Part shown: piece by piece, positions 2,580-57,410 of the stretch
How positions within the stretch are numbered: the first letter of the stretch is position 1
How the letters are laid out: each line of letters begins with the position of its first letter
DNA from: Candidatus Latescibacterota bacterium
Lineage (GTDB): Bacteria; Latescibacterota; UBA2968; UBA8231
Assembly: GCA_965261395.1 (NCBI GenBank)
Contig: OZ253462.1
Location: 2,400,001 to 2,464,000, forward strand
Reading direction: 5' to 3'
DNA: 64,000 bases
Program-made: the position numbers and the translations under genes
Notes under the pieces: generated by a model
What the model was told of the DNA's origin: nothing
Database searches by the model: none
The model's input: only the letters and a program-made list of their open reading frames with translations

Positions 2580-2618
2580 GCCGACCTATGCGCTTAGTCG
2601 TCCCGTCGTACAGCCACC
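2580..2618 (+). repeat. Dead copy of the 5' end of the oxidoreductase starting at 4584 (direct repeat of 4576-4614)
   Basis: GCCGACCTATGCGC(T/C)TAGTCGTCC(C/T)GTCGTACAGCCACC, 37/39 identical. Confidence 0.9.
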
Positions 2619-2680
2619 GCAACGCCGCGCAAGCCGCGCTGTTATCAGTTGTGGACCCGCACGATAGCCCGTTGTCCATC

Positions 2681-2950
2681 TCAGAGTCTCTTGAGAAGCT
2701 GATCATATTTGGCGTGCGAGCCAATCCAGAACCAAATCATGGAGTCGTTGCGGCGAACACCCAGGGCGCGATAATCTCTGCTGATTCGAACGGCGAAAAT
2801 CGGTTTAGTCGGATGAACTTTCTTGAACCGGAGACTTGGGTGATAAGGATCGGCTTGGAATTGCCGGTAGGCTGATCTGGCTTGGTCTCGGACGCCGCGC
2901 GGCAAACCTTGAAGTGCCGCGCGAAATCGCTCCGTGGTCCGAGAGGTCAT
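2681..2950 (-). CDS. RelE/ParE-superfamily toxin
   Basis: TTERFR...DPYHPSLRFKKV...VRISRDYRALG...WFWIGSHAKYD. Confidence 0.8.
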   Translation of the reverse strand: MTSRTTERFRAALQGLPRGVRDQARSAYRQFQADPYHPSLRFKKVHPTKPIFAVRISRDYRALGVRRNDSMIWFWIGSHAKYDQLLKRL

Positions 2951-3165
2951 ATCTGCTCTGGGTCGAGAGGCTCAGTCTTGTTATCGCTGTATTCTTTGAG
3001 TGCCTCTTCAGCAAGTTGGTCCAACTCGGCCCTAGAGTTCTCAAAGGCGTTGTCCCACTGTCGCTCAGATTCTAGCTCTGCCATTATGACGGCGGCGATG
3101 GCGTCTTGCTCCTCGTCTGGGAGCTTCTTGATCTCTAAAATGGCCTTCTCAAGGAATTGGGTCAT
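2947..3165 (-). CDS. Acidic antitoxin of the RelE-like toxin
   Basis: 72 aa, acidic (LEKAI..KLPDEEQDAIA..QWD..LAEEAL); 4-nt overlap with toxin. Confidence 0.75.
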   Translation of the reverse strand: MTQFLEKAILEIKKLPDEEQDAIAAVIMAELESERQWDNAFENSRAELDQLAEEALKEYSDNKTEPLDPEQI

Positions 3166-3252
3166 GATAAGTGTCTCCTCACTCAGATCGTCGGGTACCT
3201 TCTGGTCGTCCTTTCATTATAATTAAATAGTCAACCTGAGAAAGGACAGACC

Positions 3253-4593
3253 ATGTTGTACCACCGCTTGCGCCAACTCGACCAAAGGGGCACACCCATT
3301 CAGATCGGCCTCATCGCGGCCGGCACCTTTGGCACCCAGATCGCCTCGCAACTGGCCCATGCCCCCGGCATGCGCTTGGCCGCCATTGCCGAATTGGATC
3401 TAACCAAAGCCCGGCGCGCGTACGGCCGGGGCGATGTCCCCGACGACCAGATAGACACAGCCGACGATCCTGCGGCCATTGACGCGGCTATGGAGGCGGG
3501 CCGCTACGCCGTCACCGTTGATGCCCACGCCCTGATGGAGAGCCGCATTGACCTAGTTATCGAAGCCACGGGCAACGTCGAGGCCGGAGCGGCCCACGCC
3601 CGCTATGCCATCGCGCAAAAAAAGCATCTAGTCATGGTCACGGTGGAGGCCGATGTAGTCGTCGGCAGCCAACTGAAAAAACTGGCCGACCAGGCCGGCG
3701 TACTCTACAGCGCCGCGTACGGCGATGAGCCGGCCTGCGCCTTGGAACTGTGGGACTGGGCCCGTGCCCTCGGCTTCAGGGTAATAGCCGCCGGCAAGGG
3801 CACGCGCTTTAAGACCGCCTTCCGCAAAGCCAATCCCGACGACGTGCCGCGTCTGTACGGCTTTACCGGACGCGATTACAACGCCCAGATGTTTGGTTCA
3901 TTTTTAGACGGCACTAAGCACGCCATTGAAATGGCCTGTCTGGCCAATATGAGCGGCCTCGTGCCCGATGTGCGCGGGATGCACTTCCCAGCCGCGGACT
4001 TGCGCCAGATCCCCGACATCTTGTGCCATCGGAGCAAGGGCGGCCTGCTCAACGCGGAAGGCGTGGTCGAGGCGGTCAGTCTAATCGACGAGAACGAACG
4101 GCCCGTCGAGCGCGGTCTGCGCGGCGGCCTGTACTGCGTCGTCGATGGGGCCACGCCCTTTGCCATGGAATCGCTCGGTTCGTACGGCGAAATCATCGGC
4201 ATGATTATCGGCCAGCGCAGCGGCTACGGCATGATCTATCGCCCACAGCACTGGATTGGCCACGAAATGCCCATCAGCGCGGCGCGCATCGCCCTCGACG
4301 GCCAGACATCGGGTCACCCCATCGGCCATTACGCCGAAGTCGTGACCGCGGCCAAAAAGCCCCTCGCCGCTGGCACTATGCTCGACGGCGAGGGCGGTTA
4401 TTGCGCGTATGGCCTGTTGGAAAAAGCCACCCTCGCCCGCTCCGGCAACCTACTGCCCATAGGTCTGTCGCAACGGGCCGTGCTCACCCGCGATATCCCC
4501 GAGGACGCCCTGATCACCTACGACGATGTCGAACTGCCCGATTCCGAATTGCTCACCTTGCGCCGCCAGCAGGAGGCCGACCTATGCGCCTAG
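3253..4593 (+). CDS. NAD(P)-dependent oxidoreductase, homoserine-dehydrogenase-like, with C-terminal SAF domain
   Basis: IGLIAAGTFG Rossmann motif, EATG, DGTKHAIEMA, AAKKPL..G..LDGEGGY, LPIGL. Confidence 0.85.
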   Translation: MLYHRLRQLDQRGTPIQIGLIAAGTFGTQIASQLAHAPGMRLAAIAELDLTKARRAYGRGDVPDDQIDTADDPAAIDAAMEAGRYAVTVDAHALMESRIDLVIEATGNVEAGAAHARYAIAQKKHLVMVTVEADVVVGSQLKKLADQAGVLYSAAYGDEPACALELWDWARALGFRVIAAGKGTRFKTAFRKANPDDVPRLYGFTGRDYNAQMFGSFLDGTKHAIEMACLANMSGLVPDVRGMHFPAADLRQIPDILCHRSKGGLLNAEGVVEAVSLIDENERPVERGLRGGLYCVVDGATPFAMESLGSYGEIIGMIIGQRSGYGMIYRPQHWIGHEMPISAARIALDGQTSGHPIGHYAEVVTAAKKPLAAGTMLDGEGGYCAYGLLEKATLARSGNLLPIGLSQRAVLTRDIPEDALITYDDVELPDSELLTLRRQQEADLCA

Positions 4594-5654
4594 TCGTCCT
4601 GTCGTACAGCCACCACGGCCGCAGCATCGGCCAGACCGCCCGTGCCTTGGGGCACGATATAATCGGGGTTATGGATGGGGAAGAAGCCCCGCGCCAACAA
4701 CTCGCAGAAATTTTCCAATGCCCAGGCTTTGCTACCGCTGGCGAGTGCCTCGACGCCATGCAGCCCGCCGCCGCTATAGTCGCTGGCAAGCACATTGAAA
4801 TGCCGGATCACGTGCAGGCCTGCGTCGATCGGCGCAGCCCCTACCTGCTCGACAAACCCTTTGCCGATTGCGCTGCTCGGCTCCGACCCGCGGCCGCAGC
4901 GTCAGCCAAATACGGGGTCTTCAGCGCTCTCACCCTGCCCAATCGCGCTAGCCGCATCGTCGCTACTGTGGAGCGGTTGCTGGCGGATGGCACGCTGGGC
5001 GATTTGGTCCAGTATAGCTGCCGCCTCAACAACGGCCCACCTTCGCGCTACGACCCGACGCCCTCGGCTTGGCACAACGACCCGGCCATTTCCGGCGGCG
5101 GCAGTTGGGCCGTAGAGGCGGCCCACGGCATTGACACCTTCCTGCAATTCGTCGGCGAGCAGACGGTACACGTGGTCGGCGCGATCATGTCCAATGCCAC
5201 TCACGGCCGGACAGTGGAGGATATTGGCTTGGGAATGCTGCGCACGGACGGGGGCGTGACCGGCTTTATTGAAAGCGGCTACGCCTACCCGGCAGGAGTG
5301 CGCGGCGGCGACCACTTCTTCCGCTTTATCGGCACCCGTGCCATGGTCTTCCAGCAGTACGGCAAAGAGGGCGAGCCTCTCATCGAAGTCCACACTACCG
5401 AAGGCGTACAATTCAGTGAAGATCTGTCGCACGGCGAGCGCATGAAGAACATTGTCGATCAAGCCCTGACCGCTTTGGCAGATGGGCGGCCCTTCACTCC
5501 CAACATCGATCAAGCTATGCGCATTCTCGAAATACAGGACGCAGTGTACGACCACGCCCGCAGAAGCGCTCTGACCAACGGTCCGCATCCCATGGGCACC
5601 CCGCCTATGGCATCTAATGATGATGATGCGACGGCGAAAAACTACGGGCTATAG
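4584..5654 (+). CDS. Gfo/Idh/MocA-family oxidoreductase
   Basis: LLDKPFA, SGGGSW...AHGID; GGAGG RBS before ATG 4584; overlaps the SAF gene stop. Confidence 0.8.
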   Translation: MRLVVLSYSHHGRSIGQTARALGHDIIGVMDGEEAPRQQLAEIFQCPGFATAGECLDAMQPAAAIVAGKHIEMPDHVQACVDRRSPYLLDKPFADCAARLRPAAAASAKYGVFSALTLPNRASRIVATVERLLADGTLGDLVQYSCRLNNGPPSRYDPTPSAWHNDPAISGGGSWAVEAAHGIDTFLQFVGEQTVHVVGAIMSNATHGRTVEDIGLGMLRTDGGVTGFIESGYAYPAGVRGGDHFFRFIGTRAMVFQQYGKEGEPLIEVHTTEGVQFSEDLSHGERMKNIVDQALTALADGRPFTPNIDQAMRILEIQDAVYDHARRSALTNGPHPMGTPPMASNDDDATAKNYGL

Positions 5655-7546: not shown

Positions 7547-7570
7547 TGCTCCATCTCTTGTGGGTCCGGG

Positions 7571-9891: not shown

Positions 9892-9994
9892 GCGTTTGCC
9901 GTTCAATTTGGGGAGTGAATAGAAGAAGTGCTTATTAAAGAAACACTTAGTATAAAGAATTTTGCATTGTTTGTCGGACCTTAATTTCATGTGG

Positions 9995-10011
9995 CCATTG
10001 TGTTACAATGG
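9995..10011 (+). promoter_or_regulatory. 7-3-7 inverted repeat overlapping an extended -10 (TGnTACAAT)
   Basis: CCATTGT-GTT-ACAATGG in the divergent intergenic region, 16 nt before ATG 10028. Confidence 0.45.
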
Positions 10012-10027
10012 ACAGAAAGGGCGCGTC

Positions 10028-12046: not shown

Positions 12047-12050
12047 GAGC

Positions 12051-14446: not shown

Positions 14447-15472
14447 ATGGCAGTTAAGACGTGTTTGATGATCGGTGCCAGCGGCATGGCTGGCGGTTGG
14501 ATCGAGCGGCTGACTCAGCGCCTCGGCGACAGAGTCCAGATCGTCGGGTTGGTGGATGTCAACGAGGAAGTGCTCGCCGCCCAAGGAGCCAAGCTCGGCT
14601 TGGGGGCCGAGCAGCTTTTTACCGATTACGAAGAGGCTTGCGCCAAGGTGCAGGCTGATTTCTGCGGCATTGCCACCCCGCCGCAGTTCCACAGCCCGCA
14701 GGCCATCGCCGCGCTGGAAGCGGGGATGCCGGTTATCTGCGAGAAGCCGATTGCCGATACCTTAGCAGCGGCCAAGGCCATGGCCGCCAAGGCCGAGGAG
14801 ACGGGGTTGCCCTGCGCGATTATCCAGAATTACCGCTACGCGCCCAACAAGCAGGAGGTGGTGCGGATTCGCGACGAAGGGAGACTGGGGCGGCTGCAGC
14901 ACATCTTTGGCCGCTACGCCTGCGACTATCGCGAATACATGTCGTGGGGCAAGGCGTGGCGACACGACATGGATTTCAGCTTGCTCTTTGAAGGCTCGGT
15001 GCATCACTTCGATATGATGCTCTTCTTGTCGGGGGGGAATTGCGAGGTGTTTCAAGGATTTGGGTGGAACCCGGCGTGGTCGAGCTTTAAACACTATTCG
15101 AGCGGATTTTATCTGATGAGGATGGACAATGGAGTGCACACAGCGTACGAGGGGAACAGTTCGGCGGCGGGGATTAAGAGTTGTTGGCACAGCGAGTACT
15201 ATCGCTTGGAGTTCGAGGAAGGGACGGTGGAGATAGGCGCGGGAGACGAGGTGCGAATTTATCGGGTGGGGCAGGAGGTGGAGGTGTATCCGGCGCCAGC
15301 CATGGAGTGGGCCGGGCACGAGTATTTGCTCAAGGAGTTTGTGGATTGGCTGGAGGGGGGCAAGGCGTCGGCGACGAGGATTGAAGATAATTTGCAGAGT
15401 TTCGCGCTAGTGATTGCGGCGATGGAGACGACAGAGGATGGGGAGCCCAAGCGAATTGCGGATTATTTGTAA
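14447..15472 (+). CDS. Gfo/Idh/MocA-family oxidoreductase
   Basis: IGASGMA, ATPPQFH, CEKPIA, QNYRY, SVHHFD. Confidence 0.9.
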   Translation: MAVKTCLMIGASGMAGGWIERLTQRLGDRVQIVGLVDVNEEVLAAQGAKLGLGAEQLFTDYEEACAKVQADFCGIATPPQFHSPQAIAALEAGMPVICEKPIADTLAAAKAMAAKAEETGLPCAIIQNYRYAPNKQEVVRIRDEGRLGRLQHIFGRYACDYREYMSWGKAWRHDMDFSLLFEGSVHHFDMMLFLSGGNCEVFQGFGWNPAWSSFKHYSSGFYLMRMDNGVHTAYEGNSSAAGIKSCWHSEYYRLEFEEGTVEIGAGDEVRIYRVGQEVEVYPAPAMEWAGHEYLLKEFVDWLEGGKASATRIEDNLQSFALVIAAMETTEDGEPKRIADYL

Positions 15473-15587
15473 AGTCTCGGCTTTAGAAACTAAGACGCAG
15501 ACGCACGGCTCTGGTCGTGCCATTGAAACTGAACAGGAATCGCGGAATCGCCTGTCCTAGCCGTCGTTGTTGCCGCGCAGCAGGAAC
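15355..15587 (+). repeat. Left copy of a three-block mosaic direct repeat
   Basis: 15355-15472 matches 17428-17545; 15481-15534 matches 17570-17623; 15549-15587 matches 17650-17688. Confidence 0.9.
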
Positions 15588-15693
15588 TTGCCGGGGTATG
15601 GAAAAAAGTACATCATATTCTGTTGAATCATCTCTATGTCGCTTTTGCGAGACGATCTGCACACGATTGTCTTGACAACCAAGGAGAGTCGCC

Positions 15694-17436: not shown

Positions 17437-17688
17437 GGCATCGGCGACGAGGATTGAAGATAATTTGCAGAGTTTTGCGCTGGTGATTGCGGCGCTGGAG
17501 ACGACGGTGGATGGGAAGCCCAAGCGAATTGCGGATTATCTGTAAGAAGCAATTCGCTTGGGCGCACTACTTTAGAAACTGAGGCGCAGACGCACGGCTC
17601 TGGTCGCGCCGTTAAAACCGAACTGATTCACTTCCCAAGGATACTGAAGCGCCTGTCCTAGCCGTCGTTGCCTCCCCGCAGCAGGAAC
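17428..17688 (+). repeat. Right copy of the mosaic direct repeat, including a dead allele of the oxidoreductase 3' end
   Basis: Translates GGKASATRIEDNLQSFALVIAALETTVDGKPKRIADYL* versus ...AAMETTEDGEPKRIADYL* at 15472. Confidence 0.9.
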
Positions 17689-18098
17689 ACGCCCATCGCG
17701 CCCGCAAGCAGCGGCAGCGTGGCGTCGATGAGGATCCACACGAGGCTGGCCGTATCCCCTCCTGCGGCGGTGAATGCAGGACTGAGCAGGATAAACCAGT
17801 TCCAGAAGAACAGGATGCCCACGAACAGGAAGCCGTAGAATTGCGCGTTGGCGGCAACAAACTCGCGCGTCACCGCGCCGCTGTCCCCCTCGCTGTCAGC
17901 GGCTTTCTTGCGGAGGTAGCCGAATATCACGCCCAAGGCGATGGCCAGCGCCATCAACGGGTCCAAGATGTCCCAAAGCGGGCTATACGGCTGCCCTTTG
18001 CTCGAGGTGTGATAGAGCGGTTCGACTACGGTGTGGACTGCGACCGCAACCGCCATCAGGACGAGAAATATGCCACTAATTCGCTTGAGCGTATCCAT
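17658..18098 (-). CDS. Hypothetical 4-TM membrane protein
   Basis: 146 aa, four hydrophobic helices; AGGAGG RBS. Confidence 0.75.
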   Translation of the reverse strand: MDTLKRISGIFLVLMAVAVAVHTVVEPLYHTSSKGQPYSPLWDILDPLMALAIALGVIFGYLRKKAADSEGDSGAVTREFVAANAQFYGFLFVGILFFWNWFILLSPAFTAAGGDTASLVWILIDATLPLLAGAMGVFLLRGGNDG

Positions 18099-33984: not shown

Positions 33985-33996
33985 AAGGAGAGCTCA

Positions 33997-36026: not shown

Positions 36027-36028
36027 TG

Positions 36029-36226: not shown

Positions 36227-36230
36227 CGGC

Positions 36231-49562: not shown

Positions 49563-49565
49563 CTC

Positions 49566-50663
49566 GTGTTGCCGTTCACGCGCATCGTCCGCGCGCTGCC
49601 GCCGACCGTCCCTTTTGTGCCGCCCGAGGCCTTGGAGAGGCAACAGGGGCAGCCGCTCGCTCTGCGGGTTGGGGCCAATGAGAGCAATTTCGGGATCTCG
49701 CCGCGAGCGCGGCAGGCCATGGTGGAGGCGGTGGATCAAGTGCATTGGTACAACGACCCGGAGGGATACGAGCTGCGCTCGGCGCTGGCGGTGCGGCACG
49801 GGGTGGCGCTGGAAGAGGTCGCCTTGGGCGCGGGTATCGATGAAATCTTGGGACTTTTGGTGCGCCTTTTCGCCGAGCCGGGCGACGCGGTGGTGACCTC
49901 GCTGGGGGCCTATCCCACGTTCAATTACCACGTCGAGGGGTACGGGGCGGTGCTGCACAAGGTGCCCTATCGCGCGGATCGGGAGGACTTGCCGGCCCTG
50001 TTGGATAAGGCGCGGCAAGTGCGTCCCAAGCTGCTTTACGTGGCCAATCCCGACAATCCCATGGGCACCTATCAGCGGGCCGACGAGTTGCGGGATCTTA
50101 TCGCGGAGTTGCCGCCGGGCTGTGTGTTGCTGCTCGACGAAGCGTACATCGACTTCGCGCCTGTGGATGCGCATCTACCGCTGGACACGGAACGGGCGCA
50201 GGTGGTGCGGCTGCGGACGTTTTCCAAGGCACACGGCATGGCCGGGGCGAGAATCGGCTATGCGCTGGCGCACCGCGACATGGTGGCCGCGCTCGACAAA
50301 ATCCGCAACCACTTTGGCGTCAACCGCATCGCCCAGGCTGGCGCGCTCGCTTCGCTGGGCGACGACGAGTTTGTGCGGCAAGTGGTGCGGCAAGTGGAGG
50401 AAGGTCGGCGGGAATACGCTTCGCTGGCGGTGGAATTGGGACTGAAAACGGTGCCTTCGGCGACCAATTTCGTGGCACTCGACGTGGGCAGTGGTAAGCG
50501 TGCGCGGTGCCTGATGCAGGTGCTTTTGCAGCGCGGAGTCTTCGTGCGGATGCCGGGCGTGGCCCCGCTCGACCGCTGCATCCGCCTGACCGTGGGACCA
50601 GCCGCCGAGCGGCAAGCCTTTGCGAAGGTGTTGCGCGAGGTGTTGCCGAAATTAGATACGTGA
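49566..50663 (+). CDS. Class I/II PLP aminotransferase (HisC-like)
   Basis: GANES, ANPDNPMG, LDEAY, RTFSKAHGMAGARIGY. Confidence 0.85.
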   Translation: MLPFTRIVRALPPTVPFVPPEALERQQGQPLALRVGANESNFGISPRARQAMVEAVDQVHWYNDPEGYELRSALAVRHGVALEEVALGAGIDEILGLLVRLFAEPGDAVVTSLGAYPTFNYHVEGYGAVLHKVPYRADREDLPALLDKARQVRPKLLYVANPDNPMGTYQRADELRDLIAELPPGCVLLLDEAYIDFAPVDAHLPLDTERAQVVRLRTFSKAHGMAGARIGYALAHRDMVAALDKIRNHFGVNRIAQAGALASLGDDEFVRQVVRQVEEGRREYASLAVELGLKTVPSATNFVALDVGSGKRARCLMQVLLQRGVFVRMPGVAPLDRCIRLTVGPAAERQAFAKVLREVLPKLDT

Positions 50664-50796
50664 GGAAGGGGCAAACGCCCAACTTAAAAGCATAAACTAA
50701 TGAAAATTCCCGTTTTTGAGTCGGCTATGAACATAGGGGTCGAAGGACAATACGCCGAGTTGCTTTTCATGCAGCAAGGCCTTGGAGATATTGCAA

Positions 50797-53700
50797 ATGG
50801 AACATCTGGATCGAATCGTTGCCTATTGGCGTGCATGTCTTGCAGACAGTGCTCGTCGTAATATTGACTCAAGCAGACTTGAAAAGGCTCATTCAGTTGA
50901 GATTACTATAGAGCCATCAAGGAGTTATATACCCTCACAGATAGCCAGCAGAATGGTGGATGATTTTAAGAGGAAAGAGAAGAAAAAAACATCGCGTCAG
51001 AAAGCTGTTTCTCAAGAAAAATCGACTGAAGAAGGTGAGCTTGTCAGTGTATTGATATGCCCAATTGTTGCACGTCCAAAAACCGATCATACGATCCGCA
51101 GGGTAGGGAGAGAAAAGCCATTGACACCTGTGTGGATACCAGCTCGGTTATCGCGGGATGGGGATCTCACTCCTTCCGACGAGTTCATGCCGTGGATTCC
51201 ACGAGATCTACTAGCGCCAGCTCAGGTGGCAGAGACTATTGGCAATGTTGAAGCGATGGATCACTTCCTCACACACAATCCGACGATTCAAAATGGAGAA
51301 AACCCTGACAATGAACCTCGCTGGATCGATGTGTGTCAATACAGTAATGATATGCTACAACGCGTTGTCGGACAGACGGTTGAAGAGTTCGATGTTAAAG
51401 GTTATGAAAGAGAGGTAACTCCCCGCATTTTACTCAATGAGGATGTATGGTTCATCCCGTCTCATATTATCAGACTATACGACGCGATTTTGCTCAGACT
51501 CGAGGATGAGTCGTTAGCACCTCCCAAACTTTTACCTCGCTTAACGTCTTTGCGTGATGAACCGCTGCGTCCCTTGCTGGATGAGAACCAAAGGGTTGAA
51601 AAATCAGCTCAACATCTCGGGTACATGGAGTGGCGTCATCCGTTATCCGTATCTCAACGTGAAGCTGTCGATCACTTTTTAACTTTGTCGGATGGGGGAA
51701 TACTAGCGATCAATGGCCCACCGGGAACGGGTAAGACGACATTGCTGCAAAGTGTTGTCGCCTCATTGTGGGTTGATGCAGCTTTACATGAGCGTGAACC
51801 GCCGGTTATTTTTGCGTCTTCGTCGAACAACCAAGCTGTCACCAATGTTATAGACAGCTTTGGAGACGTACCTGAAGATAAATCTTTGTTGAGAGGCCGA
51901 TGGATTCCAGAGCTCAAGAGTTATGGCCTCTTTTGTCCATCTTCAAGCAGAGCACAGGAAGCTCTGGACAGACAGTATCAAATAACAACGAGCTGGCCCA
52001 ATCCCAGCGGATTTTTCCTACCGCCAAGTTCTGAAAATTCTGAAAAATGGAATGGAGGCAATATCGAGGACGAAGTATTTATTTCTCTCGCTGAGCAGTA
52101 TTTTCTCGAGCGTTGTCGTGACTATATGAAGAGTTGTGGAAATATGAATGTCGTCAATGTCAAGGACGCGGTCAGATTGCTGCATCGACAACTTGAGGAG
52201 AAGACCAATGTTATTTACCAAGGGGTTCAAACATGGTTGCAGGTGGAGCGTATCAAAACCGAATTATCGGACCGTTATGGCAGTCGTGGAGGTATTGAAA
52301 CACATCTGACCCAGTGTGCAAATGATTTGGAAGTATGCCAGAAGGAAATCGTTCAATACAGAGAAGCTCAACAAGGCTGGCTGAACCATGTAGATACCGT
52401 TGTTTCATTCTTCAAACAGCTTGTTAAGGGTGCTCGAAACCAAGAACAGGGTTTCGCCGAGAAACTACGTCAAGCTGGACGTGATTGGCGAGATCATGCG
52501 GATACCATTCTTTTATTCTTCGAGCAGCGTGTCAAGGAGGCTGGGAATCAAGAACGAGATTTCGCCGAGAAACTACATCAAATACAAACTGGATTATCAG
52601 ACCTCTATGGCGGCGGTCATAGGGGCATTGAAACACATCTGACCCAGTGTGCAAATGATTTGGAGACATGTCAGAAAAAGATAGTTCAATACAGAGAAGT
52701 CCAACAAGGCTGGCTGGACCATGTAGATACCGTTCTTTCTTTCTTCAAGCAGCTTGTCGAGGACGCTGAGAACCAGGAACAGGGTTTCGCCGAGAAACTA
52801 CATCAAGCTGGACGTGATTGGCGAGATCATGCGGATACCATTCTTTTATTCTTCGAGCAGCGTGTCAAGGAGGCTGGGAATCAGGAACGGGGTTTCGCCG
52901 AGAAACTACATCAAATACAAACTGGATTATCGGACCTCTATGGTAGTCACGGGGGCATTGAAACGCGCCTGACCCAGTGTGCAAATGATTTGGAAGTATG
53001 CCAGAAGGAAATCGTTCAATACAGAGAAGCCCAACACGACTGGCTGGACCATGTGGATACCGTTATTCCATTCTTCAAGCAGCTTGTCAAGGACGCTGAG
53101 AACCAGGAACAGGGTTTCGCCGAGAAACTACATCAAGCTGGACGTGATTGGCGAGATCATGCGGATACCATTCTTTTATTCTTCGAGCAGCGTGTCAAGG
53201 AGGCTGGGAATCAGGAACGGGGTTTCGCCGAGAAACTACATCAAATACAAACTGGATTATCGGACCTCTATGGTAGTCGCGGAGGCGTTGAAACACATCT
53301 GACCCAGTGTGCAAATGATTTGGAGACATGTCAGAAAAAGATCGTTCAATACAGAGAAGCTCAACAAGGCTGGCTGGACCATGTGGATACCATGCCATGG
53401 TGGATGACACTATTTGGATTTCTCCCATGGGTCAAAGGCCGTATCGAGATACGCAATCGACGTTATCTTTTGTCTATTCGTTCGACGTGTCTAGTTGATC
53501 CATTGGATATCAAAGGTATCATGGATTTCTTCGACGGGTGTGTCAAGGAGGCTGAGAACCAAGAACGGGATTGCGCCGAAAGACTGCATCAAATCGAACG
53601 CGATTGGCGAGATCATGCGGACACCATTTTTTCATTCTTCGACGGGTGTGTCAAGGAGGCTGAGAACCAAGAACGGGATTGTGCCGAAAGACTGCATCAA

Positions 53701-55314
53701 ATCGAACGCGATTGGCGAGATCATGCGGACACCATTTTTTCATTCTTCGACGGGTGTGTCAAGGAGGCTGAGAACCAGGAACGGGGTTTCATCGAAAAGC
53801 TGCGTCAAGTCGAACGCGACTGGCGAGACCATGCGGACACCATTTTTTCATTCTTCGACGGGTGTGTCAAGGAGGCTGAGAACCAGGAACGGGGTTTCAT
53901 CGAAAAGCTGCGTCAAGTCGAACGCGACTGGCGAGACTATGCAGGCACCATTCTTTCATTCTTCGAGCAGCGTATCAAGGACGTTCGGAACCAAGAACAG
54001 GGTTTTGCCGAAAAGCTGCGTCAGGCCAAACGCGATTGGGCGAGATTGCAGAGAGAGGAACAGGCATGGGACGCTTGGTGTGCTCAACATGAATTTTCTA
54101 CCGATCGTTCTTCTCTGCTCGATACCATGGATACCCGCTTGCGCTATACTGCCTTTAAATTGGCAACCCATTACTGGGAAGGCCGGTGGTTGCTTGAAAT
54201 GCGTGAGCAGTTCAATACAGACTACAAAGAAAGTCAATCAGAAAAAAAACAGAAGAAACGGTGGCGGCGTTATGCAAAGTTGGCCCCCTGCTTTGTCTCA
54301 ACCCTATACACACTGCCTAACCTAATGCATGCTTTTAACGGTAAACATGTAACATTGTTCGACTTCATCGACCTTCTTATTATTGATGAAGCTGGCCAAG
54401 TTTCCCCTGATGTGAGTGGCGCGACGTTTGCATTAGCCAAAAAAGCTCTCGTTGTGGGGGACATGCAGCAAATTGAACCTATATGGGGCATCACTGAGTC
54501 TATTGATATTGGTAACTTACGCGAGAAAAAGGTGGTCTCCACCGGCGATGAAGATGAAATATCAGCATTTTTTTCTACAGGTCTTGCGGCCTCAAGCGGA
54601 AATCTTATGAAAGTCGCACAGCGCGCTAGCCCATATCAAAAATCTGATGAGCGTGGCCTCTTTGAGCGTGGTATGTTTTTGACGGAACATCGTCGCTGTG
54701 TACCAGAGATTATTCAGTACTGCAACCGACTCGCGTATGGAGGACGTCTGATCCCGATGCGGGAGAGTGAGGTGGATTATCCACTACCTCATCTTGGCTA
54801 CGCACATATTTCTGGACAATCACGTCGAGTGGGAGGCAGTCGGGACAATCGAGATGAGGCGACTGTTATTGTAAGATGGATTGCAGAGCATCGTGACATG
54901 CTTGCATCGCATTACTCTAAGAAGAGCTTGAGCTTGGATCAGATCGTCGCAATCGTTACGCCTTTTAGACCGCAGGCCAACCTGCTCCAGGAGCTGCTGA
55001 AGAAGTCCGGTATTACTGAGTCGTTAAAGGTTGGTACCGTCCATATCTTACAAGGAGCAGAGTGCCCCGTCGTGATCTTTTCTCCTGTATATGGTATCGA
55101 TGATCGCCCACCGTATTTTTTTGATCGTGGCAATTCCATGCTCAATGTGGCAGTTTCACGTGCTAAAGACAGCTTTCTCGTTTTTGGGAACATGAACAAT
55201 TTTGATCAGAAGGCTTCTTCAAAACCATCAGGCCTCTTAGCCAGTTTCTTGTTTCAAGATGAAGCAAATGGAATCACTCAAGCTGCGTCCGTGCGTGACC
55301 CTCTATTCGGATAA
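50797..55314 (+). CDS. SF1 (DNA2/NAM7-like) helicase with a large internal helical repeat expansion
   Basis: SQREAV, GPPGTGKTT, SSNNQAV, IDEAGQ, VGDMQQ, HRRC, VTPF, TVHILQGAE, LNVAVSRAK; visibly lower GC. Confidence 0.9.
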   Translation: MEHLDRIVAYWRACLADSARRNIDSSRLEKAHSVEITIEPSRSYIPSQIASRMVDDFKRKEKKKTSRQKAVSQEKSTEEGELVSVLICPIVARPKTDHTIRRVGREKPLTPVWIPARLSRDGDLTPSDEFMPWIPRDLLAPAQVAETIGNVEAMDHFLTHNPTIQNGENPDNEPRWIDVCQYSNDMLQRVVGQTVEEFDVKGYEREVTPRILLNEDVWFIPSHIIRLYDAILLRLEDESLAPPKLLPRLTSLRDEPLRPLLDENQRVEKSAQHLGYMEWRHPLSVSQREAVDHFLTLSDGGILAINGPPGTGKTTLLQSVVASLWVDAALHEREPPVIFASSSNNQAVTNVIDSFGDVPEDKSLLRGRWIPELKSYGLFCPSSSRAQEALDRQYQITTSWPNPSGFFLPPSSENSEKWNGGNIEDEVFISLAEQYFLERCRDYMKSCGNMNVVNVKDAVRLLHRQLEEKTNVIYQGVQTWLQVERIKTELSDRYGSRGGIETHLTQCANDLEVCQKEIVQYREAQQGWLNHVDTVVSFFKQLVKGARNQEQGFAEKLRQAGRDWRDHADTILLFFEQRVKEAGNQERDFAEKLHQIQTGLSDLYGGGHRGIETHLTQCANDLETCQKKIVQYREVQQGWLDHVDTVLSFFKQLVEDAENQEQGFAEKLHQAGRDWRDHADTILLFFEQRVKEAGNQERGFAEKLHQIQTGLSDLYGSHGGIETRLTQCANDLEVCQKEIVQYREAQHDWLDHVDTVIPFFKQLVKDAENQEQGFAEKLHQAGRDWRDHADTILLFFEQRVKEAGNQERGFAEKLHQIQTGLSDLYGSRGGVETHLTQCANDLETCQKKIVQYREAQQGWLDHVDTMPWWMTLFGFLPWVKGRIEIRNRRYLLSIRSTCLVDPLDIKGIMDFFDGCVKEAENQERDCAERLHQIERDWRDHADTIFSFFDGCVKEAENQERDCAERLHQIERDWRDHADTIFSFFDGCVKEAENQERGFIEKLRQVERDWRDHADTIFSFFDGCVKEAENQERGFIEKLRQVERDWRDYAGTILSFFEQRIKDVRNQEQGFAEKLRQAKRDWARLQREEQAWDAWCAQHEFSTDRSSLLDTMDTRLRYTAFKLATHYWEGRWLLEMREQFNTDYKESQSEKKQKKRWRRYAKLAPCFVSTLYTLPNLMHAFNGKHVTLFDFIDLLIIDEAGQVSPDVSGATFALAKKALVVGDMQQIEPIWGITESIDIGNLREKKVVSTGDEDEISAFFSTGLAASSGNLMKVAQRASPYQKSDERGLFERGMFLTEHRRCVPEIIQYCNRLAYGGRLIPMRESEVDYPLPHLGYAHISGQSRRVGGSRDNRDEATVIVRWIAEHRDMLASHYSKKSLSLDQIVAIVTPFRPQANLLQELLKKSGITESLKVGTVHILQGAECPVVIFSPVYGIDDRPPYFFDRGNSMLNVAVSRAKDSFLVFGNMNNFDQKASSKPSGLLASFLFQDEANGITQAASVRDPLFG
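52255..53391 (+). repeat. In-frame tandem repeat, about 330-bp unit, three copies plus a partial
   Basis: Anchor GACCCAGTGT at 52308, 52641, 52971, 53301. Confidence 0.92.
53525..54040 (+). repeat. In-frame tandem repeat, 108-bp unit, about five copies
   Basis: GA following TTCTTC at 53533, 53641, 53749, 53857, 53965. Confidence 0.92.
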
Positions 55315-55357
55315 AATCCATGGCCACCGATCCAGCGCTCCTCCACCGTGATCCCCA
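55309..55357 (+). repeat. Dead allele of the 5' end of the class III aminotransferase (direct repeat of 56044-56092)
   Basis: 42/49 identical; MATDPALLHRDP versus MTTDPALLHRDP. Confidence 0.9.
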
Positions 55358-55379
55358 CTCGGCGCGTACCCTCAACTGA

Positions 55380-55512
55380 CTGTTGAGTTAAAACGAAATC
55401 CCCGTAACATCAGACGATTTTACGGGGATTTCAGGACCCGGTGGCCCTGCAAAAGAGGCTTATATCGCTAAAATCAGCCCTTTTCCGTAGATTATTCCAA
55501 ATAACTCAACAG
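55380..55512. mobile_element. Putative MITE or IS remnant with 11-bp terminal inverted repeats and an internal hairpin
   Basis: CTGTTGAGTTA (55380-90) and TAACTCAACAG (55502-12); GAAATCCCCGTAA...TTACGGGGATTTC (55395-55432). Confidence 0.5.
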
Positions 55513-55570
55513 CTTCTAAAGGGAGTAGAGGCGGCATTTGAAACGAAATCTGAGGAAGGGAGCCTACACT

Positions 55571-55771
55571 ATGCCACCTGTCAAAGAGCAGTATATCATC
55601 GACGAAAATGGTCAGCGCGTCAGCGTGGTGCTCGAAATCGGTGCCTACCAAAAGCTGCTGGAAGAGCTAGAGGAGCTAGAATCGATTCGGGCCTACGACC
55701 AAGCTAAGTCGAGAGACGATGAGGCGATTCCTTTTGAGCAAGCGGTGGAAGAAATCGAAAGGGAGCGCTGA
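55571..55771 (+). CDS. Antitoxin of a RelE-type toxin
   Basis: QYIIDENGQRVSVVL..YQKLLEELEE..IPFEQ; immediately upstream of the toxin. Confidence 0.8.
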   Translation: MPPVKEQYIIDENGQRVSVVLEIGAYQKLLEELEELESIRAYDQAKSRDDEAIPFEQAVEEIERER

Positions 55772-55773
55772 AA

Positions 55774-56025
55774 TTGTACGATCTTAGAATCCGGCGGCAA
55801 GCGCAGAGAGAGTTGGCCCAATTGCCGTCTGGGATCTATGAGAAGGTGCGCGATGCTGTGCGGATGCTGGCCAACCAACCCCGTCCAGCAGGATGCCGCA
55901 AACTGAAGGGTCGTGAAGGCTGGCGCATCCGGGCTGGGGATTACCGAGTAATTTATGAAATTGACGATCAGCAGAGTACAGTGACGGTTTTACACATTGG
56001 ACATCGTCGAGATGTTTACCGCTGA
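55774..56025 (+). CDS. relE: RelE/ParE-family toxin
   Basis: PRPAGCRKLKG..WRIRAGDYRVIYEIDD..IGHRRDVY. Confidence 0.9.
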   Translation: MYDLRIRRQAQRELAQLPSGIYEKVRDAVRMLANQPRPAGCRKLKGREGWRIRAGDYRVIYEIDDQQSTVTVLHIGHRRDVYR

Positions 56026-56054
56026 ATGCGAGACTGGCTACTTGGATAAAACCC

Positions 56055-57410
56055 ATGACTACCGACCCAGCGCTCCTCCACCGCGACCCGCAATACACCT
56101 ACCCGGTCCTCGTCAAAGGCGAGGGGATTTATTTGTACGACGAAACCGGCAATCGCTATATCGACGGCACGGCCGGGGCCGGCAACGTCACCTTGGGCCA
56201 CGGTCGCCATGCTATCGTCGAGGCCATGGCCGCCCAAGGGCGGGAGTTGGCGTATTGCTTTTCGACGTTCTTTACCAATAAGCCGGCCCTCGAGTACGCC
56301 CGCCGCTTGGCCGAGCTGGCTCCCGGAGATTTGAACCACGCGTACTTTGTCTCAGGCGGCTCCGAAGGCGTGGAGACGACTATTAAACTGGCCCGTTTGT
56401 ACCATTTGCAGAGGGGCCAGGCGCAAAAACACCAGATCATTGGTCGCTGGCGCGGCTATCACGGCGCTACTTTGGGTGCCTTGGCCGCTACCGGGATGCC
56501 GGGACTGCGGGCACCCTTTGAGCCTTATCTGCCGGCTTTTCCGCACATTGCCTCTTGCTATCCCTACCGCTGCGCTTTTGCTGGTTGCGCGGATCGCTGC
56601 AATTTGACCTGTGCCCGACAGTTAGAAGAGACCATCCGCGAGGTAGGGGCTGACAACATCGCCGCCTTTATCGCCGAGCCGGTGGTCATGGCCGGGATCG
56701 CTGCCGGGGCTCCGCCGCCCGATTACTATCCCCTCATCCGCCAGATCTGCGACGAGCACGACGTCCTCTTTATCGCCGACGAGATCATCACCGGCTTTGG
56801 CCGCACCGGCAAACTCTTTGCCATTGAGCACTGGGATGTGGTGCCCGATATGATTGTTTTCGGCAAAGGGGCCAGCAGTGGGTATGCGCCCTTGGGAGGG
56901 GTATTGCTGAGCGAACAGATGAGGGAGGGTCTCACTCGCAACGGCCAAGCCCTACCGCACGTTTTTACCTATGTCAACAACCCAGTGTCTATGCGGGCCG
57001 GCTTGGCCGTACTGGAGTTGCTGGAAGAAGAAGGCATCGTGGAACACGCCGCTCAGGTCGGGGCCTATTTGCAGGAAAAGGCCCAGGGCTTGACGCGCCA
57101 TCCTTGCGTCGGCCAAGTGCGTGGCAAGGGCCTGATGTTGGGCATTGAACTGGTCCAGGATCGCCGCAGTCGCAAGCCCTTTCCCTCCGAGTGGGGCGCG
57201 TCGCGTCGCGTGCCCCAACTTACTTTGGAACGGGGCTTGGCCATTTCGGGCACTAGCGGGGGAGCCGACTGGATTGAGGGCGACGATTTGCGCTTTTACC
57301 CGCCGCTGATCATTACCCGGCAACAGCTCGACGAGTCCTTGGCCATCATCGACGAGTGTTTGGGCCTGCTGGAAGGGGAAATGCGGCAAAAGGGCTGGGT
57401 GCCAACCTAG
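56055..57410 (+). CDS. Aminotransferase class III
   Basis: GEGIYL, SGGSE, YHG, FIAEPV, ADEIITGFGRTG, FGKG. Confidence 0.9.
   Translation: MTTDPALLHRDPQYTYPVLVKGEGIYLYDETGNRYIDGTAGAGNVTLGHGRHAIVEAMAAQGRELAYCFSTFFTNKPALEYARRLAELAPGDLNHAYFVSGGSEGVETTIKLARLYHLQRGQAQKHQIIGRWRGYHGATLGALAATGMPGLRAPFEPYLPAFPHIASCYPYRCAFAGCADRCNLTCARQLEETIREVGADNIAAFIAEPVVMAGIAAGAPPPDYYPLIRQICDEHDVLFIADEIITGFGRTGKLFAIEHWDVVPDMIVFGKGASSGYAPLGGVLLSEQMREGLTRNGQALPHVFTYVNNPVSMRAGLAVLELLEEEGIVEHAAQVGAYLQEKAQGLTRHPCVGQVRGKGLMLGIELVQDRRSRKPFPSEWGASRRVPQLTLERGLAISGTSGGADWIEGDDLRFYPPLIITRQQLDESLAIIDECLGLLEGEMRQKGWVPT

What the first reader, a model, noticed from the sequence alone, without database searches (positions are those of the whole stretch)
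2580..56092. Recurrent cassette architecture: accessory genes bracketed by duplicated ends of the neighbouring gene
Seen: four independent loci where cargo lies between direct copies of a neighbour's start, end or RBS: 2580/4576 (TA plus SAF gene), 15355/17428 (LRR-TolB), 18102/21562 (ATP-grasp operon) and 55309/56044 (RelE TA). The repeats are unrelated to one another, 14 to about 250 bp long, and the resident gene stays intact. At the 15/17 kb and 55/56 kb loci the differences are mostly synonymous third-position changes, so both copies evolved as coding DNA. In three cases an adjacent ORF's stop codon lies inside a repeat copy (4591-93, 17434-36, 55312-14). No integrase is in the window. 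Inference: a sequence-nonspecific route for gene acquisition that carries a replacement gene end from a related strain, distinct from IS target duplications or att-site integration.
Basis: partly seen in the sequence, partly recalled or inferred. Interest (0 to 1): 0.8.

Follow-up and report, generated by a model that had tools for sequence, protein, structure and literature searches.

The report
Gene-end scars flanking imported accessory genes
Accessory genes in this bacterium, mostly toxin-antitoxin and defence genes, sit between two slightly different copies of a neighbouring gene's end, which looks like the scar of DNA imported from related species by recombination without any integrase.

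Summary
Three of the four loci are real: 2575-2618/4571-4614 (44 nt, 91%), 15351-15592/17424-17693 (about 260 nt, three blocks of 85-91%) and 55292-55357/56027-56092 (66 nt, 80%). The fourth (18101/21561) is a 14-nt ribosome-binding-site match at chance level, and its "cargo" is syntenic in 14 of 14 congeners examined.

All three real loci are insertion hot spots with empty or differently filled sites in congeners. The pattern is genome-wide: 93 direct against 3 inverted isolated two-copy repeat pairs. None is 100% identical. Copy differences are enriched at third codon positions (141:109:289).

Cargo at 40 further loci is rich in defence and toxin-antitoxin genes. It holds 0 tyrosine or serine recombinases among 114 proteins, and the cargo edges share no motif.

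Best reading (0.55): one-ended recombination. This is a homologous exchange in the resident gene plus a non-homologous joint inside that gene's terminal part. It places the donor's gene end and cargo beside the recipient's own gene end, which stays as a remnant.

Rivals are single crossover of a circularised fragment, in-situ duplication with later divergence, and decayed integrase islands.

The mechanism class is known from experiments. What appears unreported, in the three literature searches I ran, is its genome-wide scar.

The parts
2291..2566 (+). L1 left flank: GNAT acetyltransferase fragment. It lacks about 300 nt that congeners have.
   Evidence: Pfam Acetyltransf_3 N-terminal part. 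In congeners the two halves are about 300 nt apart.
2575..2618 (+). L1 copy 1: remnant of the ribosome-binding site and first 10-11 codons of the GFO/IDH/MocA gene (MRLVVPSYSHR).
   Evidence: 44 nt, 91% to 4571-4614. It follows the GNAT gene as the single copy does in the empty-site congeners G004 and G012.
2681..3165 (-). L1 cargo: ParE-like toxin (2681-2950) and its upstream partner ORF (2947-3165).
   Evidence: Pfam ParE_like, E 1.5e-12. Among the congeners searched it was found only in G022. Runs X15 and X16 also hold a form that skips 2565-3236.
3253..4593 (+). L1: DRL/SAF-domain oxidoreductase. Its stop codon lies in copy 2. It was resident before the ParE-type pair arrived.
   Evidence: Pfam DRL_cat, SAF. 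Present between GNAT and GFO without any duplication in G005, G009, G010, G011, G021, G024, G041 and G044.
4571..4614 (+). L1 copy 2: working start of the GFO/IDH/MocA gene (gene 4584-5654).
   Evidence: It is 94-100% identical to the single copy of congeners.
14447..15472 (+). L2 gene A, a GFO/IDH/MocA oxidoreductase. Its last 122 nt are part of copy 1.
   Evidence: Pfam. Ortholog in 20 of 20 congener loci.
15351..15592 (+). L2 copy 1: A 3' end, an intergenic stretch of the 'alpha' type, and a remnant of the last 12 codons of gene B.
   Evidence: The intergenic type is shared with G002 and G019.
15593..17423 (+). L2 cargo: LRR plus PD40 (TolB-like) lipoprotein gene (ORF 15694-17436). It is truncated in a PD40 blade and ends in codons derived from the second copy of the A end.
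   Evidence: Pfam PD40, LRR_4. The cargo/A' junction is shared with G002 and G010. Paralogs lie at G000 4.880-4.893 Mb.
17424..17693 (+). L2 copy 2: remnant of the A 3' end (still open, 4 amino-acid changes in 40 codons), an intergenic stretch of the 'beta' type, and the working 3' end of gene B.
   Evidence: The beta type is shared with G001, G009, G012 and G020 and in part with G022, the closest relative.
17658..18098 (-). L2 gene B, a small membrane protein, intact.
   Evidence: ORF. Ortholog next to A in 11 empty-site congeners.
49566..50663 (+). L4 gene U, a class I/II aminotransferase. In TA-less congeners it directly precedes the class III aminotransferase.
   Evidence: Pfam. Junction comparison.
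50782..55314 (+). L4 older insert: SF1 helicase gene with long internal tandem repeats, inserted at the U/aminotransferase junction. Its last 8 codons and stop lie in copy 1.
   Evidence: Pfam AAA_11, AAA_12. Repeats. Found at this place only in G019 among 19 congeners with a close ortholog.
55292..55357 (+). L4 copy 1: remnant of the upstream 28 nt and first 13 codons of the class III aminotransferase (MATDPALLHRDPH).
   Evidence: The coding part is 96.6% identical to TA-less G010 over 29 nt.
55380..55525 (.). L4 cargo: a hairpin-bearing element of about 140 nt, present in many copies in several congeners.
   Evidence: Many hits of query 1081-1226 in G012, G006, G010, G000 and others.
55538..56025 (+). 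L4 cargo: RelB-like antitoxin (55538-55771) and ParE/RelE-family toxin (55774-56025).
   Evidence: Pfam RelB-like, ParE_toxin. Of 19 congeners, 4 have the pair (G022 with a truncated antitoxin), 5 have the antitoxin only, and 10 have neither.
56027..56092 (+). L4 copy 2: working start of the class III aminotransferase (gene 56055-57410), of the allele type linked to the toxin-antitoxin pair.
   Evidence: The start ATGACTACCGAC is shared with all 9 TA-bearing congeners. The 10 TA-less ones are one codon longer.

Best explanation
The repeats are scars of one-ended recombination with DNA from related species or strains.

Proposed steps:
1. An incoming fragment carries part of a conserved resident gene, including its end, plus whatever lay beside that gene in the donor.
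2. One side is resolved by homologous exchange inside the gene.
3. The other side has no homology and is joined illegitimately.
4. When that joint falls inside the terminal part of the recipient's own copy, the recipient's gene end and everything beyond it are kept.

The result is: gene body, donor gene end, cargo, recipient gene-end remnant, old neighbourhood. The gene stays intact, the two copies are direct, and they differ as alleles of different lineages do.

Repeats of the process push older cargo outward and build hot spots. Remnants then decay by small deletions.

Shown here: the architecture, empty and alternative sites in congeners, the non-identity and codon bias of the copies, the absence of recombinases and of shared motifs, and allele affinities at two loci.

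Inferred: the order of events, the linear one-ended mechanism itself, and the way the DNA entered the cell.
For: 1. Direct orientation. Among isolated two-copy pairs (78% identity or more, 35-700 nt, 150-12000 nt apart) there are 93 direct and 3 inverted.

2. Born different.
- 0 of 93 pairs are identical and 1 is at 98% or more. The bulk lie at 82-94%, the range of divergence between species of the genus (relatives are 83-95% identical).
- Mismatches by codon position in the frame of the working gene are 141:109:289 over 60 pairs, chi-square p 6e-23.
- At G000 4.512 Mb all 10 differences are third-position.

3. Insertion sites.
- L2 is empty in 11 of 20 congener loci.
- L4 lacks the toxin-antitoxin pair in 10 of 19.
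- L1 has three or more states.
- G000 5.642 Mb is empty in 10 congeners and holds other cargo in 5.

4. The structure reads as two alternative haplotypes set in tandem.
- At L4 the working copy has the allele of TA-bearing genomes. The remnant keeps the GCC codon of the TA-less alleles and shares GAT with three of them and CGT with G010.
- At 5.642 Mb the remnant is closer than the working copy to 19 of 24 congeners (3 ties, 2 reversed).
- At 4.512 Mb RmuC-X-gene occurs without a remnant in 5 congeners and X-gene without RmuC in 17. Only G000 has both in tandem.
- At L2 the remnant side carries the intergenic type seen in part in the closest relative G022.

5. Sequential displacement. At G000 2.869 Mb, G012, G009 and G021 have gene-X, then 2.5-7.5 kb of new cargo, then X'-old cargo.

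6. One cargo edge looks illegitimate. The L2 cargo gene is cut inside a PD40 blade and fused to A-derived codons.

7. No site-specific machinery.
- 0 recombinases in 52 window ORFs and in 114 cargo proteins of 40 loci.
- Only 4 PF00589 matches in the whole genome.
- No shared 8-mer at cargo edges beyond random expectation.

8. The repeat itself is often too poor a substrate for a crossover. The longest exact block is under 25 nt in 45 of 93 pairs, and is 14 nt at L1 and 17 nt at L4. The whole adjacent gene offers about 1 kb at roughly 90%.

9. The mechanism class is experimentally established (passages read in PMC3240628, PMC2884548 and PMC5361080).
Against: - No donor haplotype was found that shows the illegitimate joint with its microhomology. 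The key junction is therefore inferred, not seen.
- In the only experimental paper I read, most events in E. coli conjugation were single crossovers of circular molecules giving 109-950 bp duplications. True one-ended events were rare (PMC3240628).
- Allele affinities are mixed. At L2 the A-end remnant is closer than the working copy in only 8 of 20 congeners and less close in 11. At 4.512 Mb the working copy is closer in 19 of 23.
- The third-position excess (about 2.3 times the mean of positions 1 and 2) is weaker than expected for pure ortholog divergence, so part of the divergence is decay after the event.
- An identity profile along the gene at 5.642 Mb showed no clear crossover step.
- Only 42 of 93 pairs touch the end of a gene of 150 aa or more by my crude gene calls. 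Of the rest, 27 lie inside genes and 24 touch no large gene.
- I have no baseline count from other bacteria, and co-oriented paralogs may inflate the direct class.
- ComEC and DprA are present but are also found in 10 of 14 control genomes, so they say little about DNA uptake.
Confidence: 0.55

Rival explanations
1. Campbell-type insertion-duplication. A fragment carrying cargo plus a piece of the resident gene end is circularised, or is excised as a circle by recombination between existing repeats. It then integrates by a single homologous crossover within that piece, which duplicates the piece on both sides of the cargo.
For: It gives the same final architecture and the same direct orientation. 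Single crossovers of circular molecules gave 109-950 bp duplications in 56 of 60 clones in E. coli conjugation (PMC3240628, passages). The longer repeats here could serve as substrates: 36 of 93 are 100 nt or more, and L2 is about 260 nt with a 35-nt exact block. A contig of run X1 joins 17693 back to 15679 with 5 letters between, as a circle or tandem copy of cargo plus copy 2 would.
Against: The longest exact block is under 25 nt in 45 of 93 pairs, and under 20 nt at L1 and L4, which is poor for RecA-type crossover. At L4 and at 5.642 Mb the copies sort cleanly into a donor-like and a recipient-like allele rather than two chimeras, although the numbers are small. The back-joint is one contig at depth 7.8. 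It can equally come from a relative whose B-end remnant resembles copy 2.
Confidence: 0.2
2. In-situ duplication, by a long staggered-cut insertion or a tandem duplication with cargo inserted. The copies were identical at birth and became different later, by decay of the remnant and by allelic replacement of the working gene through ordinary homologous recombination with other lineages.
For: The genus is clearly mosaic: three intergenic haplotypes are shared across species at L2. Later replacement of the working copy would also give third-position-biased differences. Remnants do decay: a 2-nt deletion in G000, an internal deletion in G010, and complete loss by TAGC microhomology in G002. At 4.512 Mb the two copies are closer to each other (96.1%) than to any of 23 congeners.
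Against: No young, identical pairs exist: 0 of 93 at 100% and 1 at 98% or more. At 5.642 Mb the non-functional remnant is the more typical allele in 19 of 24 comparisons. At 4.512 Mb all 10 differences are third-position, so the remnant has not decayed at random. I know of no mechanism that gives target duplications of 36-663 nt.
Confidence: 0.1
3. Decayed integrase-borne islands. Elements that integrate into gene ends and carry a replacement end (attL/attR), which have since lost their recombinase or were mobilised in trans.
For: Replacement gene ends with mostly synonymous differences are classic for phages that integrate into protein genes (recalled: phage 21 and e14 in icd; no call). Of the 42 pairs that touch the end of a large gene, 34 involve a 3' end and 11 a 5' end (3 involve both).
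Against: 0 tyrosine or serine recombinases among 114 cargo proteins at 40 loci and 52 window ORFs. There are 4 PF00589 matches in the genome against 93 unrelated sites. No shared motif at cargo edges. Gene starts are used as well. Cargo can be as small as one toxin-antitoxin pair. Congeners with the same cargo lack recombinases in the stretches examined.
Confidence: 0.05
4. Assembly artefact: two strain haplotypes were joined in series by the assembler.
For: The runs that hold the window are mixed. Many variant letters and alternative joints appear, for example a form skipping 2565-3236 at about a third of the depth in X15 and X16.
Against: The same structures occur in independently assembled genomes of other species: L1 in G022, L4 in G019, and the L2 cargo/A' junction in G002 and G010. 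Contigs of other runs bridge the joints: X19 covers 2489-3165 across copy 1, and X15 covers 3745-5598 across copy 2.
Confidence: 0.02

Closest known systems
Homology-facilitated illegitimate recombination. It is described for Acinetobacter, Pseudomonas stutzeri and Streptococcus pneumoniae. I saw it only as cited and summarised in PMC2884548, PMC5361080 and PMC3240628; I did not read the primary papers.
   Same: One homologous anchor plus one non-homologous joint. No recombinase, no fixed site. Brings in foreign DNA beside a conserved gene.
   Different: The laboratory events, as summarised in the passages I read, are described mainly as insertions with deletion of recipient DNA. Here the joint falls inside the region homologous to the anchor, so the recipient's gene end survives as a direct, diverged repeat. 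Also, this is a natural, genome-wide record (93 loci) rather than a selected event.
Insertion-duplication by single crossover of a circular molecule (Campbell-type), as in PMC3240628
   Same: Duplication of 109-950 bp of the homologous segment on both sides of the inserted DNA.
   Different: It needs a circle and a crossover inside the repeat. Half of the repeats here have exact blocks under 25 nt.
Sequential displacement of T6SS effector-immunity modules in Vibrio cholerae, and 'C-terminal displacement' at Rhs loci (PMC5361080, passages)
   Same: A conserved upstream anchor. New 3' end plus neighbour gene arrive together. The old 3' end and neighbour are pushed downstream, giving arrays (compare G012, G009 and G021 at the 2.869-Mb locus).
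   Different: There the displaced tips are different toxin domains with immunity genes. Here any gene end, 3' or 5', serves. The displaced end is an allele of the same sequence, and the cargo is general accessory and defence DNA.
Core defence hot spots and integration hot spots without mobile-element marks (PMC10250203, passages; PMC5635113, search listing only). Neisseria 'minimal mobile elements' (recalled).
   Same: Different cargo between the same conserved flanking genes in related genomes. Defence-rich. No integrase.
   Different: Those are thought to turn over by double homologous recombination 'without scars' (PMC10250203, discussion). Here one side leaves a scar that reports the mechanism.
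Prophage or island integration into a gene end with a carried replacement end (recalled: phage 21 and e14 in icd)
   Same: A working gene end supplied by the incoming DNA. The displaced end is left on the far side. Differences are largely synonymous.
   Different: It requires a site-specific recombinase and a specific att core. Neither was found here.

Membership tests
Homology-facilitated illegitimate (one-ended) recombination product | One side of the insert is continuous with a resident gene through homologous sequence that carries donor-type polymorphisms. | tested here: met
   At L4 the working copy has the allele of the TA-bearing genomes. At 5.642 Mb the working copy and the adjacent 300 nt of the gene are 2-5 points less like congeners than the remnant and the far flank.
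Homology-facilitated illegitimate (one-ended) recombination product | The other side is a non-homologous joint, usually with a few bases of microhomology. | tested here: inconclusive
   The L2 cargo gene is cut within a PD40 blade and fused to A-derived codons. Without a donor sequence the microhomology cannot be read at any locus.
Homology-facilitated illegitimate (one-ended) recombination product | No recombinase, no terminal repeats of an element, no fixed target sequence. | tested here: met
Homology-facilitated illegitimate (one-ended) recombination product | Depends on uptake of linear DNA and on RecA. | not testable with these tools
   ComEC and DprA families are present but are also present in 10 of 14 control genomes.
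Campbell-type insertion-duplication | A homologous segment is duplicated on both sides of the insert. | tested here: met
Campbell-type insertion-duplication | The duplicated segment itself is an adequate substrate for a homologous crossover. | tested here: inconclusive
   Longest exact block is under 25 nt in 45 of 93 pairs (L1 14, L4 17, L2 35). The threshold of about 30 bp is for E. coli, as cited in PMC2884548.
Integrase-borne island with att duplication of a gene end | A tyrosine or serine recombinase in the element or in related copies. | tested here: not met
   0 of 52 window ORFs and 0 of 114 cargo proteins. 4 PF00589 matches genome-wide, none between a direct pair.
Integrase-borne island with att duplication of a gene end | A common att core for related elements. 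| tested here: not met
   The repeats are unrelated to each other. No 8-mer is shared at cargo edges beyond random sets.
Transposon or IS target-site duplication | A short, fixed-length, identical duplication with element ends and a transposase. | tested here: not met
   Repeats are 36-663 nt at 78-98% identity. No transposase at the three window loci. Transposase-related proteins are in 6 of 40 other cargo sets.
Sequential displacement arrays (Rhs / CDI / T6SS effector-immunity) | A conserved anchor gene with displaced older ends and neighbours kept distally. | tested here: met
   Nested arrangement in G012, G009 and G021. L4 has a helicase insert and then a toxin-antitoxin insert.
Sequential displacement arrays (Rhs / CDI / T6SS effector-immunity) | The variable end is a toxin domain paired with an immunity gene. 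| tested here: not met
   The anchor genes are oxidoreductases and an aminotransferase. The displaced ends are alleles of the same sequence.

The most novel reading that the evidence does not exclude
The diverged gene-end repeats are more than scars. They act as portable attachment sites for an integrase-free cassette cycle. Recombination between the two copies excises cargo plus one gene end as a circle. The circle is taken up by a related cell and re-enters at the same gene by homologous recombination. In this way any conserved gene end becomes an exchange point for defence and toxin-antitoxin genes within a community of related symbionts.
Probability: 0.12. Interest if true: 0.8.

Novelty: new variant of a known kind. 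Interest (0 to 1): 0.6.

Why it matters
How toxin-antitoxin pairs and defence systems move into chromosomal hot spots that carry no mobile-element marks is an open question. PMC10250203 calls such hot spots enigmatic and expects transfer "without scars".

Here one side of the event does leave a scar: a diverged copy of the neighbour's gene end. That scar can be counted (93 in one genome). It can be dated from its divergence and assigned to donor and recipient alleles.

If the pattern is general, a simple self-comparison of any genome would map past one-ended recombination events and show what they brought in. It would also give a natural measure of how much illegitimate recombination contributes to gene gain.

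Tried and rejected
- Locus 3 (18101/21561) was rejected as chance, and its operon is syntenic.
- Reads: only Logan contigs were on offer, not raw reads. Excised circles, empty sites within one strain and depth steps could therefore not be tested. Table 8 listed no contig bridging the L2 copies.
I draw no habitat from them.
- A sliding identity profile along the anchor gene at 5.642 Mb was meant to find the crossover point. It gave ordinary heterogeneity and no step.
- My first two crude gene callers mis-called the GFO gene. The third was used, but it is still rough for small genes and for start sites.
- Donor junctions: none of the 23-30 congeners carries the exact sequence next to the cargo at 4.512 Mb or 5.642 Mb, so microhomology could not be read.
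- The ComEC and DprA searches are uninformative, because the families ring in most control genomes.
- No whole genome of another taxon was available for a baseline of direct against inverted pairs.

Full report
**Setting.** The window is G000:C1:2400001-2464000 of a single-contig genome of 6.55 Mb. The genus holds at least 46 other species genomes, many of them complete.

**Observation.** The repeat finder and pairwise alignments confirm three of the four repeat pairs.
- L1: 2575-2618 vs 4571-4614, 44 nt, 91%.
- L2: three collinear blocks, 15351-15472, 15481-15534 and 15545-15592, against 17424-17545, 17570-17623 and 17646-17693. Identities are 91, 89 and 85%. The three-genome alignment extends the likeness about 16 nt to the left.
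- L4: 55292-55357 vs 56027-56092, 66 nt, 80%.

Each pair has exactly two copies in the genome.

L3 is only 14 identical bases, a ribosome-binding site plus start on the minus strand. Codon-block shuffles of the window give 0-5 such matches. The ATP-grasp operon is contiguous with gene B in 14 of 14 congener loci that reach it. I drop L3.

**What the genes are** (Pfam).
- L1 reads, in order: MazE/PIN pair (1640-2277), GNAT fragment (2291-2566), copy 1, ParE-like toxin and partner on the minus strand (2681-3165), DRL/SAF oxidoreductase (3253-4593), copy 2, GFO/IDH/MocA oxidoreductase (4584-5654). Copy 1 is a remnant of the ribosome-binding site and first 11 codons of the GFO gene.
- L2 reads: GFO/IDH/MocA gene A (14447-15472), LRR+PD40 lipoprotein (15694-17436), small membrane protein B on the minus strand (17658-18098). 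The repeat unit holds the convergent 3' ends of A and B and the spacer between them.
- L4 reads: class I/II aminotransferase U (49566-50663), an SF1 helicase of 1510 aa with internal tandem repeats (50782-55314), copy 1, an element of about 140 nt present in many copies, RelB/ParE pair (55538-56025), copy 2, class III aminotransferase (56055-57410). Copy 1 is a remnant of that gene's upstream 28 nt and first 13 codons.
- None of the 52 window ORFs scanned matches an integrase, resolvase or transposase. Window 62652-64000 was not scanned.

**L2 in congeners** (20 loci).
- A and B are adjacent with a single unit, the empty site, in 11: G001, G005, G009, G011, G012, G013, G019, G020, G021, G022 and G024.
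- G002 and G010 have a homolog of the cargo.
- G018 has about 1.1 kb of other DNA.
- In 6 (G004, G006, G007, G008, G014, G016) B is not next to A in the stretch fetched.

The three cargo-bearing genomes share the joint between the cargo and the second A end. The cargo ORF ends in A-derived codons: EFVD* in G002 and G010, and a frame shifted by a 2-nt deletion in G000.

The remnant has decayed differently in each genome. G002 lost it through a deletion between two TAGC. G010 has an internal deletion. So the structure arose once and has since been inherited or passed on.

The spacer occurs in at least three haplotypes across species. Copy 1 of G000 has the type of G002 and G019. Copy 2 has the type of G001, G009, G012 and G020, and in part of G022, the closest relative. 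The N-terminal LRR part of the G000 cargo differs from that of G002 and G010 and is 87% identical to a paralog at G000 4886665.

**L4 in congeners** (19 with a close ortholog).
- In 10 (G002, G004, G005, G006, G010, G011, G012, G018, G020, G044) U directly precedes the aminotransferase, which starts ATGACCGCCACCGA.
- Four have the toxin-antitoxin pair: G007, G019, G043, and G022 with a truncated antitoxin.
- Five keep only the antitoxin: G001, G009, G013, G021, G041.
- All nine of the last two groups start ATGACTACCGAC, one codon shorter, as copy 2 does.

Copy 1 reads ATGGCCACCGAT. It keeps the GCC codon of the TA-less alleles and the GAT and CGT states of G010 (96.6% over 29 nt). It is continuous with the old U/aminotransferase junction, into which the helicase gene was inserted.

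Only G019 shares the helicase, copy 1, the short element, the pair and copy 2. G043 has the pair next to the gene with no remnant within 1.5 kb.

The remnant is thus the resident allele. The working copy is the allele that travels with the cargo.

**L1 in congeners**.
- GNAT-X-GFO, the empty form, occurs in G004, G007, G012 and G018.
- GNAT-DRL-X-GFO without any duplication occurs in 8: G005, G009, G010, G011, G021, G024, G041 and G044.
- The full G000 structure occurs only in G022.

The DRL gene therefore arrived earlier. It took over the last codons and stop of the GNAT gene. The latest event added the ParE-type pair together with a displaced GFO start.

**Genome-wide.** I compared 30-kb chunks of the genome with themselves by BLASTN. 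I kept pairs of 35-700 nt, at 78% identity or more, 150-12000 nt apart, and unique within the chunk. That gave 165 direct and 8 inverted pairs.
- Removing pairs whose flanks also align at protein level took out 69 (65 direct, 4 inverted).
- Removing pairs with more than two genomic copies took out 43 (39 direct, 4 inverted). The two classes overlap.
- This leaves 93 direct and 3 inverted.

By my own arithmetic a 50:50 null gives about 2e-24. That null is generous, because co-oriented paralogs that escaped my filter would add to the direct class.

Other properties of the 93 direct pairs:
- Median repeat 79 nt (range 36-663). Median spacing 2167 nt (324-10041).
- Identity: 0 at 100%, 1 at 98-99.99, 16 at 94-98, 23 at 90-94, 19 at 86-90, 25 at 82-86, 9 at 78-82.
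- With a home-made gene caller, 42 of 93 have a copy that is the end of an outer gene of 150 aa or more. Of these, 34 involve a 3' end and 11 a 5' end. A further 27 lie inside such a gene and 24 touch none.
- In the 60 pairs where exactly one copy lies in a gene of 150 aa or more, mismatches fall 141:109:289 on codon positions 1:2:3, with equal numbers of sites (p 6e-23).
- No 8-mer is shared by the cargo edges more than in random sets: maximum 4, against a mean maximum of 5.4.

**Cargo.** I scanned 114 proteins between the copies at 40 further loci. These are 114 of 118 predicted; the other 4 are the same genes in overlapping loci.
- Defence and conflict genes: a type I restriction system with a PIN protein, two DNA methylases, Mrr with a caspase-like protease, a TIR-TPR protein, SMC/AAA_15 and AAA_21 ATPases, PglZ, HamA, Fic, Schlafen/AlbA_2, AHJR-like and Uma2 nucleases, RmuC, an IrrE-type regulator, and PIN pairs with PrlF or FitA antitoxins.
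- Other genes: PhyH dioxygenases, a sulfatase, secreted F5/8-type-C and FG-GAP proteins, and a giant WD40 protein.
- Transposase-related proteins occur in 6 of the 40 loci.
- No tyrosine or serine recombinase occurs. The genome has 4 PF00589 matches in all.

**Three further loci in congeners.**
- G000 4.512 Mb (23 congeners). None has two copies. Five have RmuC-X-gene and 17 have X-gene. G012 also has part of G000's outer flank next to X. G000 alone has flank-X-RmuC-X-gene. The copies are 96.1% alike and all 10 differences are third-position.
- G000 5.642 Mb. Ten congeners are empty and five hold other cargo. The non-functional remnant is closer than the working copy to 19 of 24 congeners (3 ties, 2 reversed; kin are not independent). 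The far flank is 92-95% identical where the gene next to the cargo is 88-91%.
- G000 2.869 Mb. G041, G001 and G043 have gene-X-AHJR nuclease without a second copy. G012, G009 and G021 have gene-X, then 2.5-7.5 kb of other DNA, then X'-AHJR. New cargo therefore enters next to the gene and pushes the old unit outward.

**Reads**. Only contigs were available.
- A contig of run X19 spans GNAT, copy 1 and the ParE-type pair (2489-3165, 9 differences).
- A contig of X15 spans DRL, copy 2 and GFO (3745-5598, 1 difference).
- X15 and X16 also hold a form that skips 2565-3236, at roughly a third of the local depth. It resembles the DRL-only state.
- X1, X15 and X16 hold a form that joins 2570 to 2962 with AGT between.
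- One contig of X1 joins 17693 back to 15679. This is ambiguous.

**Mechanism.** The copies are direct, non-identical from the start, allele-like, and tied to conserved genes. One copy is continuous with the cargo and the other with the old neighbourhood. No recombinase or motif is involved.

This fits a fragment from a related genome that shares only one flank with the recipient. There is a homologous exchange in the gene, and a non-homologous joint that happens to fall inside the recipient's copy of the gene end. The length of the scar is the distance from that joint to the end of homology. That explains the spread from 36 to 663 nt and why gene ends are so often included.

The main rival, single crossover of a circle within the repeat, gives the same picture and was the commoner event in E. 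coli conjugation (PMC3240628). But in 45 of 93 pairs the longest exact block is under 25 nt. At L4 and at 5.642 Mb the copies look like one donor and one recipient allele rather than two chimeras.

In-situ duplication followed by divergence is disfavoured by three results: the lack of any identical pair, the third-position bias, and the remnant being the more typical allele at 5.642 Mb. Duplication followed by allelic replacement of the working gene is not excluded.

**Literature.** I read passages of four papers.
- PMC3240628: duplications from single crossovers; one-ended events rare.
- PMC5361080: effector-immunity displacement, with one-ended recombination proposed.
- PMC2884548: "illegitimate recombination assisted by homology" proposed for dimorphic loci in E. 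coli; 10-18% of variable segments flanked by direct repeats.
- PMC10250203: core defence hot spots; transfer by flanking homology would leave no scars.

Other titles were seen only in search listings. In these three searches I found no description of genome-wide diverged gene-end repeats as a signature of such events. That is not proof that none exists.

**Verdict.** The interest lies in the scale, the defence-rich cargo and the readable scar.

Noticed in passing
window 55380-55525: A hairpin-bearing element of about 140 nt (AAATCCCCGTAA...TTACGGGGATTT) that occurs in many copies in several congeners (at least 8 listed in G012) and a few times in G000. It looks like a small non-autonomous mobile element.
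   Followed up: partly
window 52256-54066: The SF1 helicase gene carries long in-frame tandem repeats: periods of 330-333 nt, and four copies spaced 108 nt apart at 73-100% identity.
   Followed up: no
window 2291-2566: The GNAT gene of G000 lacks about 300 nt that lie between its two halves in congeners, including G022.
   Followed up: partly
L036, L039, L045 (G021, G041, G001), upstream of the class III aminotransferase: In five congeners only the antitoxin gene remains. In three of them it is 96-97% identical to G000, higher than the neighbouring housekeeping gene at about 90%. The toxin gene is gone.
   Followed up: partly
window 15694-16358; G000:C1:4880716-4893488: The LRR part of the cargo lipoprotein differs from that of G002 and G010. 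It is 87% identical to one member of a cluster of LRR/PD40 paralogs 2.47 Mb away, which suggests a module swap by recombination among paralogs.
   Followed up: partly
window 33172-36434: A D12-class adenine methyltransferase, followed by two genes without a Pfam match and a lone VapB antitoxin. This may be another small defence islet.
   Followed up: no
G000:C1:4226015-4229553: One of the three inverted pairs (46 nt, 91%) brackets a tyrosine recombinase gene (PF00589 match at 4226130-4226642). It may be an invertible segment.
   Followed up: no
window 2564-3237 and 2570-2962: Contigs of runs X15 and X16 (and X1 for the second) hold forms that skip the ParE-type pair with copy 1, or skip copy 1 plus the toxin gene only. 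Related genomes with other states of this hot spot therefore coexist in the same samples.
   Followed up: partly
window 17693 -> 15679: One contig of run X1 (depth 7.8) joins the end of copy 2 back to just upstream of the cargo gene, with 5 letters between. It could be a circle or tandem junction, or a relative with a different spacer.
   Followed up: no
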